This document shows positions 2,646 to 61,863 of a DNA stretch of 64,000 bases, piece after piece. Location: positions 24,552,001 to 24,616,000 of the forward strand of contig NC_090350.1 in assembly GCF_035084215.1 (NCBI RefSeq), given 5' to 3'. This DNA comes from Heptranchias perlo. Lineage: Eukaryota. The notes beneath the pieces were generated by a model that was given only the letters and a program-made list of their open reading frames with translations, had not been told where the DNA came from and did no database searches. Every line of letters begins with the position of its first letter. Position 1 is the stretch's first letter. Made by a program: the position numbers and the translations under genes.

Positions 2646-3203
2646 AATTTTTATTTTGAGGACAGTTTTGCACTGAGAATGGGGACTGAGCTCAAATATT
2701 TCTACACACAAGTATCAGAGATAAAAAAAATATTCATACCCTCTCTCCAGGTTGTATTTGAACTTAAAGGAGTCAGAGTAAAATCTCCCTGTTGAAAGAT
2801 TAGCAGCACAGCTGTCTGCTAGAATGTCACGGTGCCTGCTATCAGGTGTGTCACTTACCTGCTGTGCTTCACATCAGGCCCACGAAGAGCGTTCTAAACA
2901 TTGCTGTACCTCAGTACAGTTGCTTCTTTGGAGCAAAATCCTTGTTTGCCACAACATTATATTGAACAGGAATATTAACAGTTAGCATCAACAGAGTTCT
3001 GTAGCAACATTTCCAGTAACTAAGAAAAGCTTTAAAAATATAACATGGTCAAGTTCAGTGCTCCCAAATTTCAATCTGTGACTTGCAAAGATACTTTCTA
3101 AAATCCTCTTTCAGTTTTAGTAGCAACTGCTAATATTAAAAAAACATGTACCCTGGATAAAACTTGAAAACTGTGCTAAAATCTTGCTTTGTTTTTTTTT
3201 TAG

Positions 3204-3241
3204 GGACAGTCGATGGGTTGTGAGGTCACACAACTCGAGGG
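3204..3241 (+). CDS. GRHL3: GRHL3 38-nt micro-exon (GQSMGCEVTQLE-G)
   Basis: Strong acceptor ttgttttttttttag| and donor |gtaagg. The 38 nt convert phase 0 to phase 2, exactly as needed to join 2180 to 5771 in frame. No recognisable protein similarity. Confidence 0.75.
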
Positions 3242-4343
3242 GTAAGGAAAACTTTCTGTTTATTCTCAAGTTACTAATGTTCAGTGCCTGGGGATATTTT
3301 TCTATGTTAAAGGTGCCATGTTTGTATGTTGTTGATGATGATGATAAGATATCTCATTTTAATGTTCTATGCAGTCAAGCTGTTCACTTCAGTGAACTCA
3401 TAGATGTGCCTCCATGCAGTAATTTGGTAATCAGAAGACACATCAGAGCCTTTGAGAAAGACATAAAGGAAATTCCAAATAGCTTTGCACACTGACACCG
3501 TCTCCCACAGTGGAATTTAACTGATGGGCAAAAAATTTATCTGGTTATGTGCAATCATGGCAAAGTTTAAACATCAAAATTTTAGCATCCAAGAAACAGT
3601 CACAAAATGCAAACATTGAAAAAATGAGGCCACTACTCTGAAATATATAAATTAGTGTCAATTGTGTAAAAATTGATATTTTAGCATTTATTAATTAAGG
3701 AATCACAATATACATTTATGAAGTCAGGTGAATGATCTGAGTGTCTATTCCAAAGCAGCGATTAATCCTCCAAATCTTAGCATAAACTTTCAATTAATTC
3801 TGGAACCTAAGTTGCCATCATCGCCATCAACTACAAATTGTTATTTATTTCTTCTGTGATATCACTGAACTGGACAGTTAAAGTAATGTTCATTAAAGCA
3901 GAACAGTGGTAGAACTGTGAAAAATACAAGACTGCCTACATTTGGGAATTATTTTACTTTTAAAGAAATTCTTTTGAAAAAACAATGGTAGTTGTGAGTG
4001 AAAAGAGGTTGAGGATGCATCATGGGCAACAAGACCTGTTATAAATATCACCAGCTGAAACTAGAGATTAGTTTAGAACTTTTTAACCCACACCTAGGTG
4101 AGAGTTATTTTATACAATACTGCTTGATTTTTTTTTAAATTTTAAAAATCAGTAATCACAGTTTCTGTTTTGACTGAGCAGTACATGCTGAGTGTGTTCC
4201 ATAGTCTTGTTAGGTCACAGGCAAGACTGTGGATTATATGATTTATAGAATAGTGTACAGTCTTTGTGGTTTAACGAAAAGATTAAAGCACCACTTGATG
4301 GAGAGAAGCCTCTTTCAAACGATGCATTTACACTGTACGTTAC

Positions 4344-5637
4344 AATGGAGATTTCTGTCATTCATTGTGATTTTAGATGGTAAGAGTAAATCTGATCTTT
4401 TTTAAAACGGCTTCAGCCAGTTGTGCCTCTGGAATTCCTTTGCTCTGTGGCAAAGTTGCTATGTGCTGACCAACACACATAACTGGCCACATGTAACTCA
4501 AACCTTGTCATCAGTGTGAAGCAATTTCAGATTTGCACAGATGCAAAACTAACAGTGTAAATCTGGAACCAGAACCTGACCTGATTCTAGAACAAAGCTG
4601 AATGAGACTCCCCGGAAGGGATAGTCTCACATTGCCTCAGTTTGATAGCGCATGGAGTGTGAATCCAGGGAAGTGTCAAAGCTGATTTTTTAAAAATTAA
4701 TTCTCGGGATATGGGCGTCGCTGGCAAGGCCGGCATTTATTGCCCATCTCTAGTTGCCCTTGAGAAGGCGACACTGGGCCTTCTTCTTGAACCGCTGCAG
4801 TCCGTGTGGTGAAGGTACGCCCACAGTGCTGTTCGGTAGGGAGTTCCAGGATTTTGACCCAGCAACGATGGAGGAACAACGGCTCATGTCCAAGTCGGGA
4901 TGATGTGTGACTTGGAGGGGAACTTGGAGGTGACGGTGTTCCCATGCACCAGCTGCGCTTGTCCTTCTAAGTGGTGGAGGTCGCAGGTTTGGGAGGTGGC
5001 GTTGAAGAAGCTTTAGTGAGTTGCTGCAATCTAAATGTTTTAGAGAGCAGTGTTTCTCCCCCACCTGCTCTGTAAACAGCTAAATTTCTCATTTTAAGAG
5101 ACACTCATGCATCTAGGTATTTGCAAAGCCCACTCCTATACAGGACAGTGAAAGTTCCAACCAGGCAGGAGCTAATTAATGGAAACAGGATTCTGGCTGG
5201 CTGAACCTGAACTGTAACTATCAGTCTCAGGTGGGTGGCTACAGTGTAGACACACCCAAAGGTTGTTTTATCTGTCATTACAGATTTTTTCTCTATGCAG
5301 GATTAAAGAGATACATTTTGAGACAGCCATCAGCAAGAATAATTCACATAAAATAGCAATATGGAATAACCCCATGGGCACAAACAATGGGCTGTATCAT
5401 GCATAATCCCATTCTGCATTGAAACAGCAGCGAAAACCAATTTAGGACAAGCATTTCCGGTTGAATATGATGACAAGGTTTGAGTTACATGTGGCCAGTT
5501 ATGTGTGTTGGTCAGCACATAGCAACTTTGCCACAGAGCAAAGCGATTCCAGAGGCACAACTGGCTGAAGCCATTTTTAAAAAGATCAGATTTACTCTTA
5601 CCATCTAAAATCACAATGAATGACAGAAATCTCCATT
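4344..5637. repeat. 170-bp inverted repeat (arms 4344-4513 and 5468-5637)
   Basis: Arms are reverse complements with about 4 mismatches by manual comparison. Spacer is about 950 bp. Confidence 0.95.
4690..5030 (-). mobile_element. 3' fragment of CR1-group LINE (family also at 46960, 51070, 59562)
   Basis: ORF end ...AGSKSWNSLPNSTVG.PSPHGLQRFKK...LLKGN and the same 3' tail as the longer copies. Confidence 0.9.
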
Positions 5638-5770
5638 TCCATTGTGTACATGTCTAGAATTTAAATAGATACCCGCTGTTGAATTTACCTCAATGTGCTT
5701 ATAATTCCATTCTTATGTTTCATCTAACAGTATTGTTTATCGCTCATAATCATGTGCTTTAAATGTGCAG

Positions 5771-57080: not shown

Positions 57081-57893
57081 AAGATACCCGGACCTGAAGT
57101 GCGTAGTCATAGCTTGCAAATGGAGGTCTGCTAAGATTTGCTAATCACGGGTTTACAAGTAACAGGAAGCTACTGTGCACATTCGGTGCCTTTTCCAGCA
57201 ATAAACCCAACACTGCAGAAACCTTGAAGTGAGGAGTTTCTAGTCTCAGATCAATGGAATCAAGATGGCAGACAATTAGGAGTCAAAGAACCTATGACAG
57301 GAGCAGCATTTATATTTGACAAATTACAAGTTTGATGACTTGGGTGAAGGACTGTGTGTCAGTAAAGGACTAGGACTTTGATCAGGTCAAAATAAAGAAG
57401 AGGAGGAGGTCCACAAGTCAGAAAATAAAAATAACTAGACTAACTGAAAGGGAGTCAGTTAGTCAACAATTGATGTCATTGGGAAAGCCAGGAGAGGAAC
57501 AGGAGAGGCCTGAGGCTTAAGGCCTAGGTGAGTATTGTTATATTGTATGGGGGGAGAACTGAATAGAATAAAAGAAATTAGTGTGTGAAAATCTACAGCT
57601 GGAATTTAAAAATAATCATTATTTGCAACTTGGAAAATGGTAAACAAGGCAGAACAGTCACAGAAATGAAATAGGAATTTTGTAAAGGAAAATATTAAAA
57701 AGATTGTTTAAACCTGAACAAGTAATGAAAGCCATAACAACTGAAATTAAACAGTAAGTGAGGGAAATACTATGAAAATGAAATTTGCTTTATTAAAACA
57801 AATAAAAGTGAAACGTGCTCGGCTTTAAAAAGGCACATACTCATTTTTTTTTTTGAAATGATTTTTAGCCTTAGCAAGAACTTTATTTTTAGT

Positions 57894-58027
57894 CATGATG
57901 TGGAGATGCCGGTGATGGACTGGGGTTGACAATTGTAAACAATTTTACAACACCAAGTTATAGTCCAGCAATTTTATTTTAAATTCACAAGCTTTCGGAG
58001 GCTTCCTCCTTCCTCAGGTAAATGTTC
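57894..58027 (-). mobile_element. Solo Penelope-like terminal repeat with 9-bp TSD
   Basis: Flanked by atttttagt at 57885-57893 and 58028-58036. Minus strand has a hammerhead motif followed by AATAAA, typical of Penelope pseudo-LTRs. Confidence 0.8.
57983..58023 (-). ncRNA. Minimal hammerhead ribozyme motif
   Basis: Minus strand: AUUUAC-CUGAGGA-A-GGAGG(AAG)CCUCC-GAAA-GC-UU-GUGAAU. Stem I AUUUAC/GUGAAU, stem II GGAGG/CCUCC, and palindromic AAGCUU in place of stem III. Confidence 0.75.
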
Positions 58028-58677
58028 ATTTTTAGTGAATGGTCTGGTACCATTTTGTTGGAAAAGGGATGCTGATTTTGACTCAGGTAGAATTTCACGG
58101 CACAGGATCTCCAACCTTGGATCAGAGAACAGGAATGGGGGAGAAATTGGATAGCCCCGGCCTATCATCGTGAACTGGGCACAGGGAATGATTCCTGCAG
58201 CAGAACAGGTAGGCGTTAGGCCCAATCGAAATTGGACCTTGGGCCTCATTTTAAATTAGACCAGCAAGCTGCAGACTCCTGCTGCGCATCCCCAAGCAGC
58301 TTGCCGGTGGAGCGGACATCAATTTTGACAGCAGCCCTCAGGTAGATCTTGGGGGGTGGGGGAAGCGATCGGGAGGGGGCCAAGCACAGGCCACCAACGA
58401 TGTTCGGGAATAACGTGAAGCCAGGAGGAGCACTCATTCACATTCAGGTTTCTTTTTTACAAAACGTATCCTTTTGTTCGCGGCCTCCAGAGATGCCAGC
58501 TGCGCTCAGGGCAGCCCAATTTAGGGAAGGAGTCCTCAAACAAGCGTTAGGCCCCCTGTTTACATATTGAAAGGGCCTGATGTCTGGATGCCTCTGCTAT
58601 TGCCTTTGCCAATATACTGGGTGGTACGCTTTTGGTGCGGAATGTGCATGTGATGCCGCTCACCGTGTTGGACGCTT

Positions 58678-58857: not shown

Positions 58858-59249
58858 AGATGCCTGTTTTATGCCTGTAAAACCAGCGTGGCGCCAAAGA
58901 ATTTCTAGAATTTCATACTTTCCTGGAAGGTTATTACAATTATTACTGTGACCTAGGAAAACTATGCAACATCAGTGCCCTAAATAAATTTTAAAAATGA
59001 ATTAAAATAAACTATATGTAGCTTCACCCTCTTTTTTCTTTAAGGAAAGAAAATTAATTTTCTTTTCCAGCTCTTTTGGTCTCCTCATACCACACAAGAT
59101 CCAACAGGAGAGCTGCTCTGAAATTGGTTACTTACAGATGCATAAGAGTGACTGGATGGGACTAACCCTCTGGTTTTTCCTCTTTCCCCCTGTAGGAAAA
59201 CACTTGACCTCACTGGAAGCTTCCCTCCTGCAGCATGGCTGAAATTAGT

Positions 59250-61863
59250 GGGCCAGATTTTGCTGTCAAAATAACAGTGTGGCTAATGGCGCTCACCGTT
59301 ATCTATTCGTAAATGCTACAGCAACTTCAGGTGAGGGGCAGATGCCCGGTTAAACTCAATTATCCAAAAGTTGCTGTCCGAGTTGTGTCGCGAAAATGGC
59401 ATCTTGCTGTCTGCCTCACCACTGAAATGCATTGAATGGCGTGAAGTTGCTGTATTTGCCACAGAGAGCTAAATCCATTACAATCTAAGTACCCTGTTAA
59501 TGACACTAAGTATTAATTATTGCCAATCGACCTCTCTGGAACTGAAAATTGACTATTACAATTTTTTAAAATTTTATTTGTTCATGGGATGTGGGCGTCG
59601 CTGGCAAGGCCAGCATTTATTGCCCATCCCTAATTGCCCTTGAGAAGGTGGTGGTGAGCCACTTTCTTGAACTGCTGCAGTCCGTGTGGTGAAGATTCTC
59701 CCACAGTACTGTTAGGTAGGGAGTTCCAGGATTTTGACCCAGCGACGATGAAGGAACGGCGATATATTTCCAAGTCAGGATGGTGTGTGACTTGGAGGGA
59801 AATGTGCAGATGGTGTTGTTCCCATGTGCCTGCTGCCCTCGTCCATCTAGGTGCTAGAGGTCGCAGGTTTGGGAGGTGCTGTCGAAGAAGCCTTGGCGAG
59901 TTGCTGCAGTGCATCCTGTAGATGGTACACACTGTAGCCACGGTGCACCGGTGGTGAAGGGAGTGAATGTTTAGGGTGGTGGATGGGGTACCAATCAAGC
60001 GGGCTGCTTTGTCCTGGATGGTGTCGAGCTTCTTGAGCGTTGTTGCCTGCACTCATCCAGGCAAGTGGAGAGTATTCCATCACACTCCTGACGCGTGCCT
60101 TTTGGATGGTGGAAAGCCTTTTGGGAGTGAGATGGTGAGTTACTCGCTAGAGAATACCCAGCCTCTGACCTGCTTTTGTAGCCACAGTATTTATATCGCT
60201 GGTCCAGTTAAGTTTCTGGTCAATGGTGACCCCCAGGATGTTGATGGTGTTGGATTCAGCGATGGTAGTGCCGTTGAATGTCAGGGGGAGGTGGTTAGAC
60301 TCTCTCTTGTTGGAGATGGTCATTGCTGGCACTTGTCTGGTGCAAATGTTACTTGCCACTTATCAGCCCAAGCCTGGATGTTGACCAGGTTCATGCTGCA
60401 TGTGGGCACGGACTGCTTCATTATCTGAGGAGTTGCGAATGGAACTGAACACTGTGCAATCATCAGCAAACATCCCCATTTCTGACTTTATGATGGAGAA
60501 AAGGTCATTGATGAAGCAGCTGAAGATGGCTGGGCCTAGGATACTGCCCTGAGAAACTCCTGCAACAATGTCCTGGGGCTGAGATGATTGGCCTCCCAAC
60601 CCTTTGTGCTAGACGTGACTCCAGCCACTAGGGAGTTTTCCCCCGATTCCCATTGACTTCAATTTTACGAGGGCTCCTTGGTGCCACATTCGGTCAGATG
60701 CTGCCTTGATGTCAAGGGCAGTCACTCTCAACTCACCTCTGGAATTCAGCTCTTCTGTCCATGTTCGGACCAAGACTGTAATGAGGGCCGAGTGGTCCTC
60801 GCGGAACCCAAACTGAGCAACAGTGAGCAGGTTATTGGTGAGTAAGTGCCACTTGATCGCACTGCTGACGACACCTTCCATCACTTTGCTGATGATTGAG
60901 AGTAGACTGATGGGGCAGTAATTGGCCCGGTTGGATTTGTCCTGCTTTTTGTGGACAGGACATACCTGGGCAATTTTCCACATTGTCGGGTAGAATTCAG
61001 TGTTGTAGCTGTACTGGAACAGCTTGGCTAGAGGTGCGGCTAGTTCTGGAGCACAATTCTTCAGTACTACAGCCGGGATGTTGTCGGGGCCGATAGCCTT
61101 TGCTGTATCCAGTGCACTCAGCCATTTCTTGATATCATGTGGAGTGTATCGAATTGGCTGAAGACTGGTTTCTGTGATGGTGGGTATATTGGGAGGAGGC
61201 CGAGATGGATCATCCACTCGGCATTTCTGGCTGAAGATGGTTGCAAACGCTTCAGCCTTGTCTTTTGCACTCACGTGCTGGACTCCACCATCGTTGAGGA
61301 TGGGGATGTTCTTGGAGCCTCTTCCTCCTGTTAGTTGTTTAATTGTTCACCACCATTCATGACTGGATGTGGCAGGACAGCAGAGCTTTGATCTCATCCA
61401 TTGGTTGTGGAATCGCTTAGCTCTGTCTATAGCATGTTGCTTCCGCTGTTGTGAAGTCTCATTCCTCCAGGTTGTATGGAGATTTTCAAAATGTAAAGTT
61501 TTACATTTTAATTTTTTTTTGCTTTTCCTTTCTGTCTCTTTTTTTCTCTCTCTCTCTTAATCCAATCTTTCTTTCCCACTCTTTATTTCTCTTTATGTAG
61601 CTGGTTTGACATTGAATTCACCCACTTTAACTTCAGTCCTTGCGCTGTTAGTTTCACAATCTTTCAATCTGATTGGTTAAGGAGATGCACAGTTGCTTGC
61701 CCTGTTCACTCAGGTCCCAGATGCCCTGTTTCCCTCGCTGTGACCTTATCAGCTCGCACTTTCAGCAACTTGCCACGCAAAAAATTTAAAATCCCAAACA
61801 TGCAAGGGCAAGTCTTACTAACGTCAGACGCCGTTGCATGGCCTACCGCAGCAAATTATGCCC
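59250..61863. mobile_element. Non-autonomous DNA element split by a LINE (pieces 59250-59561 and 61451-61863)
   Basis: Inverted termini gggccagattttgctg / cagcaaattatgccc. Colinear with the element at 19716-20490 across the LINE junction (actgaaaatt.ac...tgtg.agt.tcatt). Confidence 0.65.
59562..61450 (-). mobile_element. CR1-group LINE, about 1.9 kb, 5'-truncated
   Basis: KAIGPDNIPAVVLKNCAPELAAPL, ALDIKAASDRMWHQG, MFADDC, and the same tail as the 46960 and 51070 copies. Confidence 0.96.

What the first reader, a model, noticed from the sequence alone, without database searches (positions are those of the whole stretch)
57885..58036. Young 134-bp Penelope-type insertion carrying an intact minimal hammerhead ribozyme
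Seen in sequence: a 134-bp insert with a perfect 9-bp TSD (atttttagt). Its minus strand holds the hammerhead cores CUGAnGA and GAAA, a perfect 5-bp stem II, a 6-bp stem I (one G-U pair) and the palindrome AAGCUU where stem III should be. The predicted cleavage triplet is CUU, and there is one extra A after CUGAGGA. Established knowledge: Penelope-like elements carry minimal hammerheads lacking stem III that are thought to cleave as dimers. Inference: the insert begins only 4 nt 5' of stem I, so the mobile unit is essentially ribozyme plus poly(A) signal. It is in the same orientation as STPG1, about 3.7 kb upstream of the start codon, and could lie in the STPG1 5' intron.
Basis: partly seen in the sequence, partly recalled or inferred. 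Interest (0 to 1): 0.7.

Follow-up and report, generated by a model that had tools for sequence, protein, structure and literature searches.

The report
Shark Penelope leader stub with hammerhead
This 134-base insert is a real, recent stub of a very common Penelope-type jumping gene, carrying the already described minimal hammerhead motif, and it likely is a copy of just the front end of that gene's RNA rather than a mobile ribozyme of its own.

Summary
In detail: a 134-bp insert (57894-58027), 9-bp flanking duplication, and a minimal type I hammerhead motif on the minus strand. The insert is the end of a Neptune-like Penelope element: it matches 138 of 139 nt of the pLTR of an intact 3,066-bp copy, and its last three bases are the ATG of that copy's 902-aa RT/GIY-YIG ORF. 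A 34-mer of its end occurs 19,359 times in the genome. It is therefore ribozyme plus 5' leader up to the start codon, not 'ribozyme plus poly(A) signal'. Copies' 5' ends cluster just upstream of the ribozyme, peaking 29-31 nt downstream of a TATA-like box, where this insert also starts; none starts at the predicted cut. The edge is sharp in one subfamily (56% loss in 4 nt), weak in this insert's own (11%). Covariation inside the family is not significant; cleavage is untested. The insert appears to lie in an intron of a plus-strand transcript, antisense to the ribozyme. Minimal hammerheads in Penelope pLTRs are published, and this scan has noted the transcription-start pile-up before, in this genome and others.

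The parts
57885..57893 (+). Left copy of the 9-bp target-site duplication; 57890-57893 also equal the element's own sequence after the ATG (microhomology)
57890..58028 (-). Whole element-matching stretch: 139 nt, 138 identical to the pLTR/ORF junction of intact copy L047
   Evidence: (blastn)
57894..57896 (-). ATG: start codon of the parent's 902-aa RT + GIY-YIG ORF
57890..57931 (-). Penelope 'tail': the stretch missing from the inverted arm in fold-back copies (outer ends at -33 to -38 in 38 of 53)
   Evidence: PMC8557442 and PMC3846280 passages
57973..57978 (-). AATAAA inside the leader; role as poly(A) signal untested
   Evidence: sequence
57983..57988 (-). Hammerhead stem I, 3' strand (GUGAAU); predicted cut between 57989 and 57988
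57989..57996 (-). GAAA core plus GC-UU; self-complementary AGCU in place of stem III; triplet CUU
57997..58009 (-). Stem II (GGAGG/CCUCC, AAG loop)
58010..58017 (-). CUGAGGA core and the unpaired A between positions 9 and 10.1
   Evidence: PMC4209133
58018..58023 (-). Stem I, 5' strand (AUUUAC)
58027..58027 (-). 5' end of the insert; 29 nt downstream of the first T of TATAAA in the parent pLTR (predicted transcription start; the TATA box itself is not in the insert)
58028..58036 (+). Right copy of the 9-bp target-site duplication
57091..57527 (+). Host exon upstream of the insert (RNA-like contigs stop at 57527, GTGAGT follows)
59196..59330 (+). Next host exon (AG acceptor, GT donor); the insert lies in the 1,668-nt interval between the two exons

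Best explanation
The insert is the ribozyme-bearing end of a young Neptune-like Penelope retrotransposon, likely made when the element's reverse transcriptase primed near the start codon of its own uncut mRNA and ran off the RNA's 5' end. Steps: (1, shown) the parent is a 3,066-bp unit with one 902-aa RT + GIY-YIG ORF whose pLTR reads TATA-like box, hammerhead, leader, ATG; (2, inferred) transcription starts about 29-31 nt after the TATA-like box; (3, inferred, by analogy to the anole element PAc) the endonuclease nicks AT-rich DNA and the freed end primes cDNA internally, a few bases into the ORF, here helped by 4 nt of match (ACTA); (4, inferred) the cDNA ends at the RNA 5' end, about 138 nt later, and is joined to the other strand, leaving the 9-bp duplication (shown). 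The ribozyme is a passenger: it is predicted to cut only as a dimer or with protein help, and a lone copy that lacks its TATA box and is antisense to the host transcript most likely does nothing.
For: Parent and ATG; relatives with RVT_1 and GIY-YIG. Abundance: 19,359 exact 34-mers, reversed control 0. In 85 copies picked by their 3' end only, 48 of 71 still at risk end between -114 and -145 (2.1 per 100 per nt, against 0.22 and 0.25 in the flanking intervals). Measured against their own subfamily, 20 of 69 short arms end at TATA+29 to +31; the mode is 15-17 nt upstream of the core in subfamily B and 10-11 nt in subfamily A, i.e. at the same TATA distance. Genome-wide in subfamily B: 10,361 -> 4,596 -> 3,857 exact matches on extending upstream in 4-nt steps, the drop covering an initiator-like TCA+1TTT (Inr consensus recalled). 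No 5' end at the predicted cut (-92); 4 of 85 within -87 to -98. 3' ends lie at ATG+2 to +14 in 84 of 85. PAc primes internally and uses uncut RNA in vitro (PMC11167929).
Against: In the insert's own subfamily the edge is weak: 3,818 -> 3,383 (11% loss) -> 3,111 (8% loss), and only 4 of 16 A-type short arms end at the mode, so this particular copy may be an ordinary truncation. For 35 arms ending 9-20 nt before the core, spread was smaller relative to the ribozyme (sd 3.0) than to TATA (sd 4.0) (the window was chosen relative to the ribozyme). No excess of an extra G before the ends (5 of 22). The 43% loss from 5 to 9 nt in A-type patterns partly reflects other subfamilies. No transcription start was measured: only contigs were available. 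D. virilis Penelope has a TATA-less internal promoter (PMC2377424).
Confidence: 0.6

Rival explanations
1. Structure-induced truncation: the same Penelope origin, but RT copying a long read-through RNA stalls or switches template at the 5' side of the folded hammerhead, so ends cluster there with no role for the transcription start.
For: The cluster is broad (TATA+9 to +42), weak at the predicted start in subfamily A1, and many ends fall within stem I.
Against: The sharp edge in subfamily B is 9-13 nt upstream of stem I, in unpaired sequence, and sits at the same TATA distance as the A-type mode.
Confidence: 0.3
2. A separate non-autonomous mini-element (SINE- or retrozyme-like) made of ribozyme plus poly(A) signal, copied from its own transcripts after self-cleavage.
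For: Short solo copies are common (19 of 85 are direct copies ending between -114 and -145); tandem retrozymes derived from pLTRs are described (bioRxiv 2026.07.22.740005).
Against: No fixed length or private substitutions: 4 of the 29 other copies are identical over the 134 nt and all 4 continue into parent sequence; the stub lacks the TATA box; no tandem array here; ends do not match the cut site; no poly(A) tail.
Confidence: 0.05
3. The stub is what remains of a longer insertion after deletion or pLTR-pLTR recombination.
For: Solo pLTRs formed by recombination or deletion are reported in Adineta (PMC3846280 passage).
Against: The 9-bp duplication abuts both ends exactly, and the 5' end falls at the family's modal end.
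Confidence: 0.05

Closest known systems
Minimal hammerheads (min-HHR) in pLTRs of metazoan Penelope-like elements (Cervera and De la Pena 2014, PMC4209133; parts 1-2 of 4 read)
   Same: Type I core without helix III, unpaired base between 9 and 10.1, G10.1-C11.1 pair, palindromic 15.2-16.2; most copies solo and tied to truncated PLEs; some as opposite-strand pairs 100-700 bp apart.
   Different: Stem II is 5 bp and stem I 6 bp here (7-8 and 4-5 bp in the Schistosoma families); sharks are not named in the parts read; the paper does not tie solo motifs to a transcription start in those parts.
Neptune/Nematis-type EN+ Penelope-like elements (Craig et al. 2021, PMC8557442; passages)
   Same: Single ORF with RT and C-terminal GIY-YIG, CX2-5CxxC linker (CHGNLCKTC, aa 753-761), partial tandems, inverted 5'-truncated copy, 30-40-bp tail.
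   Different: Neptune versus Nematis not separated by a tree here; this insert is the smallest direct form with no ORF beyond 7 nt.
PAc (Poseidon of Anolis carolinensis; Frangieh et al. 2024, PMC11167929; parts 1-2 of 4 read)
   Same: Internal priming at two nearby sites that bound the tail; AT-rich targets; hammerhead near the ORF start; uncut RNA as template.
   Different: In PAc the ORF starts inside the ribozyme and priming is 111-118 nt into the ORF without homology to the target; here the ATG is 92 nt after the cut site, ends lie at ATG+2 to +14, and duplications overlap the element end by 1-3 nt in 41 of 59 cases (inflated by how copies were selected).
Adineta vaga Penelope pLTRs (Arkhipova et al. 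2013, PMC3846280; passages)
   Same: pLTR reaching into the ORF start, TATA and Inr-like motifs in the pLTR, 8-10-bp TSDs, inverted pLTR, solo pLTRs.
   Different: Low copy number there; duplications here peak at 12 bp (27 of 59).
Non-LTR retrozymes (bioRxiv 10.64898/2026.07.22.740005; part 1 of 5 and passages)
   Same: Type I hammerhead, no coding capacity, pLTR-derived.
   Different: Defined as tandem arrays of two or more ribozyme units; this is a single dispersed copy with a TSD.

Membership tests
EN+ Penelope-like element (parent family) | Single ORF with RT and C-terminal GIY-YIG endonuclease | tested here: met
   902-aa ORF; RVT_1 E=2e-10; VYLI/YIGET motifs at aa 791-809; Pfam GIY-YIG did not hit this protein itself, but hits many of its close relatives
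EN+ Penelope-like element (parent family) | Partial tandem forming pLTRs; inverted 5'-truncated copies; 30-40-bp tail | tested here: met
   L047 partial tandem, 3,066-bp unit; 53 of 85 copies have an inverted arm, 38 of 53 stopping at -33 to -38
EN+ Penelope-like element (parent family) | Target-site duplication on insertion | tested here: met
   59 of 78 examined copies have a duplication of 8 nt or more, mode 12 (control 15 of 300; a few hits are internal repeats; 7 long copies left out)
Neptune clade | CX2-5CxxC linker between RT and EN | tested here: met
   shared with Nematis (PMC8557442)
Neptune clade | RT phylogeny with reference clades | not tested
   no named reference sequences in hand
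Minimal type I hammerhead | Conserved core, stems I and II, no stem III, palindromic 15.1-16.1 | tested here: met
   core nearly invariant over 31 distinct variants while position 7 varies
Minimal type I hammerhead | Compensatory changes in stems | tested here: inconclusive
   Within the family 95.6% cells paired, 2 pairs with two-sided change, 19-94 of 500 shuffles as high. Significant only after adding 5 rows chosen by a pairing filter, 2 from another family, which is circular.
Minimal type I hammerhead | Self-cleavage (as dimer or protein-assisted) | not testable with these tools
   needs an in vitro assay; cofold of two copies gives an alternative duplex, AGCU duplex only -2.5 kcal/mol
Non-LTR retrozyme | Tandem array of two or more ribozyme units | tested here: not met
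   single copy in the window
Non-LTR retrozyme | Circular monomer RNA | not testable with these tools
   only contigs available

The most novel reading that the evidence does not exclude
The thousands of solo minimal hammerheads in this genome are complete cDNA copies of the Penelope 5' leader: RT primes beside its own start codon and runs off the capped 5' end, so stub ends map the element's transcription start and show that uncut RNA, not the ribozyme product, is the template in vivo; priming is helped by 1-4 nt of target homology at a 12-nt staggered cut.
Probability: 0.5. Interest if true: 0.5.

Novelty: new member of a known kind. Interest (0 to 1): 0.25.

Why it matters
As a single insert it is ordinary: one of tens of thousands, with no sign of host function. 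As a population, the stubs record where Penelope reverse transcription starts and stops in vivo, which bears on an open question (how PLEs integrate and what their hammerheads do) and yields a cheap test: map the RNA 5' end.

Tried and rejected
Rfam scan at E up to 10: no hammerhead hit. Core-pattern count in the window: chance level. The first sample was biased by the query's flanks, so end statistics come from copies picked by the 3' 34-mer (85 distinct ends from 90 loci on the first 12.4 Mb of contig C1, out of 100 listed places). Copying from the self-cleaved 3' product: rejected, no end at -92. Cap-derived extra G: not seen, 5 of 22. Empty allele: DNA contigs of the same sample show both junctions and no skipping joint among the rows shown (9 rows not shown); no related genome is held, so the orthologous site was not checked. 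No RNA holder on record was listed, and contigs cannot give RNA starts. My guess that the plus-strand neighbour is NIPAL3 was wrong or unsupported: no PF05653 match on this contig; the next plus-strand coding exons are ribonucleotide reductase small chain. The candidate STPG1 first coding exon near 54.2-54.3 kb had no contig cover, which shows nothing. Four paper searches listed no paper whose title, abstract start or read passages tie PLE stub ends to the transcription start; supplements were not read and could bear on this.

Full report
Observation. The window holds ATTTTTAGT at 57885-57893 and 58028-58036 around 134 bp. The minus strand reads stem I (AUUUAC), CUGAGGA, an unpaired A, a 5-bp stem II, GAAA, GC, UU and the stem I partner GUGAAU. 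Both stems are in the predicted fold, with z-scores of -1.8, -1.9 and -0.45 for three pieces. The core pattern alone is at chance level (4 found, 3.3 expected) and Rfam has no hammerhead hit.

What it belongs to. A genome search returned 258 candidates, of which 40 were scored, the best places all 98-100% identical. An exact 34-mer of the insert's 3' end occurs 19,359 times, its reversed control 0 times. Many copies continue upstream into a 3' UTR and an RT ORF. L047 holds a partial tandem with a 3,066-bp unit and an open 902-aa ORF whose ATG is the last three bases of the insert. The protein has RVT_1 (E=2e-10), a CHGNLCKTC linker and GIY-YIG-type VYLI/YIGET motifs; its closest named relatives are shark proteins at 80-95% identity, and many other relatives carry Pfam GIY-YIG. 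That fits the Neptune/Nematis type (PMC8557442, passages); no tree was built. So the insert is hammerhead plus 5' leader up to the start codon of a Penelope-like element, not a ribozyme with a poly(A) signal; none of the 30 + 85 copies inspected ends in a poly(A) tail.

Where copies start and stop. Because one search was biased by the query flanks, I took 90 loci at places listed by the 3' 34-mer, giving 85 distinct ends. 3' ends lie at ATG+2 to +14 in 84 of 85 (the pattern excludes ends before +2). 53 of 85 have an inverted arm, 38 of them stopping at -33 to -38, which defines the known tail. 59 of 78 examined have a duplication of 8 nt or more, mode 12 nt, against 15 of 300 shuffled flank pairs; 7 long copies were left out and a few hits are internal repeats; 41 of the 59 overlap the element end by 1-3 nt, a figure inflated by the selection. 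5' ends cluster: 48 of 71 at risk end between -114 and -145, about ten times the rate on either side, and none at the predicted cut (-92), with 4 between -87 and -98 (positions measured on one reference, so other subfamilies are compressed and at least one copy, L072, is miscalled).

The TATA link. All 22 long copies carry TATAAATGCG or a close variant 36-47 nt before the core. Measured on their own subfamily, 20 of 69 short arms end at TATA+29 to +31; the window insert starts at +29. Whole-genome counts for subfamily B fall 10,361 to 4,596 across those 4 nt, then to 3,857. Against this: the insert's own subfamily falls only 3,818 to 3,383 to 3,111; 4 of 16 A-type short arms are at the mode; pooled spread is not smaller relative to TATA; no extra G is seen (5 of 22); the 10,201 to 5,837 fall nearer the core mixes truncation with other subfamilies. 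No RNA start could be measured: only contigs were offered.

Mechanism. Most likely (0.6) the element's RT primed just inside the ORF on uncut mRNA and ran off the 5' end. Parent structure, end positions and duplications are shown; the transcription start, the nick and the priming are inferred, the last by analogy with the anole element PAc, which primes internally, uses uncut RNA and cleaves its hammerhead only with protein (PMC11167929, parts 1-2 of 4 read). The main rival (0.3) is stalling at the folded ribozyme. A free mini-element (0.05) or a deletion remnant (0.05) fit poorly.

Ribozyme status. The core is nearly invariant over 31 distinct family variants while position 7 varies, and 95.6% of stem cells pair, but two-sided changes are few and not above shuffles. 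The significant result depends on 5 added rows chosen by a pairing filter and is circular. Cleavage is untested; published minimal hammerheads were inactive as monomers and weak as dimers (PMC4209133).

Host context. SHIPPO-repeat exons on the minus strand at 31.5-40 kb agree with an STPG1-like gene. RNA-like contigs of two organisms cover 57.1-57527 and stop at a plus-strand GTGAGT donor, and one covers 59193-59330 between AG and GT; the joint itself was not among the rows shown. The insert thus appears to sit in a plus-strand intron, with the ribozyme antisense to that transcript. Whether a minus-strand transcript also crosses it is not shown. No empty allele was seen.

Comparison and verdict. 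Minimal hammerheads in PLE pLTRs, solo truncated copies, inverted arms, tails and TSDs are all published (PMC4209133; PMC8557442 and PMC3846280, passages); tandem retrozymes differ (bioRxiv 2026.07.22.740005, part 1 of 5 and passages); D. virilis Penelope uses a TATA-less promoter (PMC2377424, passages). Four searches listed no paper making the transcription-start link in what I saw; supplements were not read. I reached the leader reading before consulting earlier scan notes, which had noted it in this genome and others; they are not independent support, one prompted the extra-G test (negative here) and one reports clustering at the cut site (not seen here). Verdict: a real, young, ordinary stub of a known element class; interest 0.25.

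Noticed in passing
window 57091-57527 and 59196-59330 (+); L050:6709-9590 (+): Two spliced-looking exons on the plus strand, seen in RNA-like contigs of two organisms (first exon) and one run (second); the next plus-strand coding exons, about 10 kb on, are ribonucleotide reductase small chain. Linkage of the exons to that gene is inferred, not shown.
   Followed up: partly
   Followed up: partly
L004:295-339 and L097:74-118: A second, unrelated minimal-hammerhead family with different stems and the palindrome ACGU instead of AGCU, followed by a pyrimidine tract ending in CAG that looks like a 3' splice site.
   Followed up: no
L031-L034; 53 of 85 sampled copies: Fold-back insertions with arms from under 100 bp to 1.9 kb, 12-bp duplications and an inverted arm stopping 33-38 nt before the ATG, consistent with priming from both target strands.
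   Followed up: partly
L047 minus strand 2982-5690: ORF-intact copy in a partial tandem; at least 38 places are fully identical over a 201-nt ORF stretch, so the family is probably still or recently active.
   Followed up: partly
L158-L160 (G000:C1 3.99-4.01 Mb): Three near-identical fold-back copies with shared flanks, probably a local segmental duplication.
   Followed up: no
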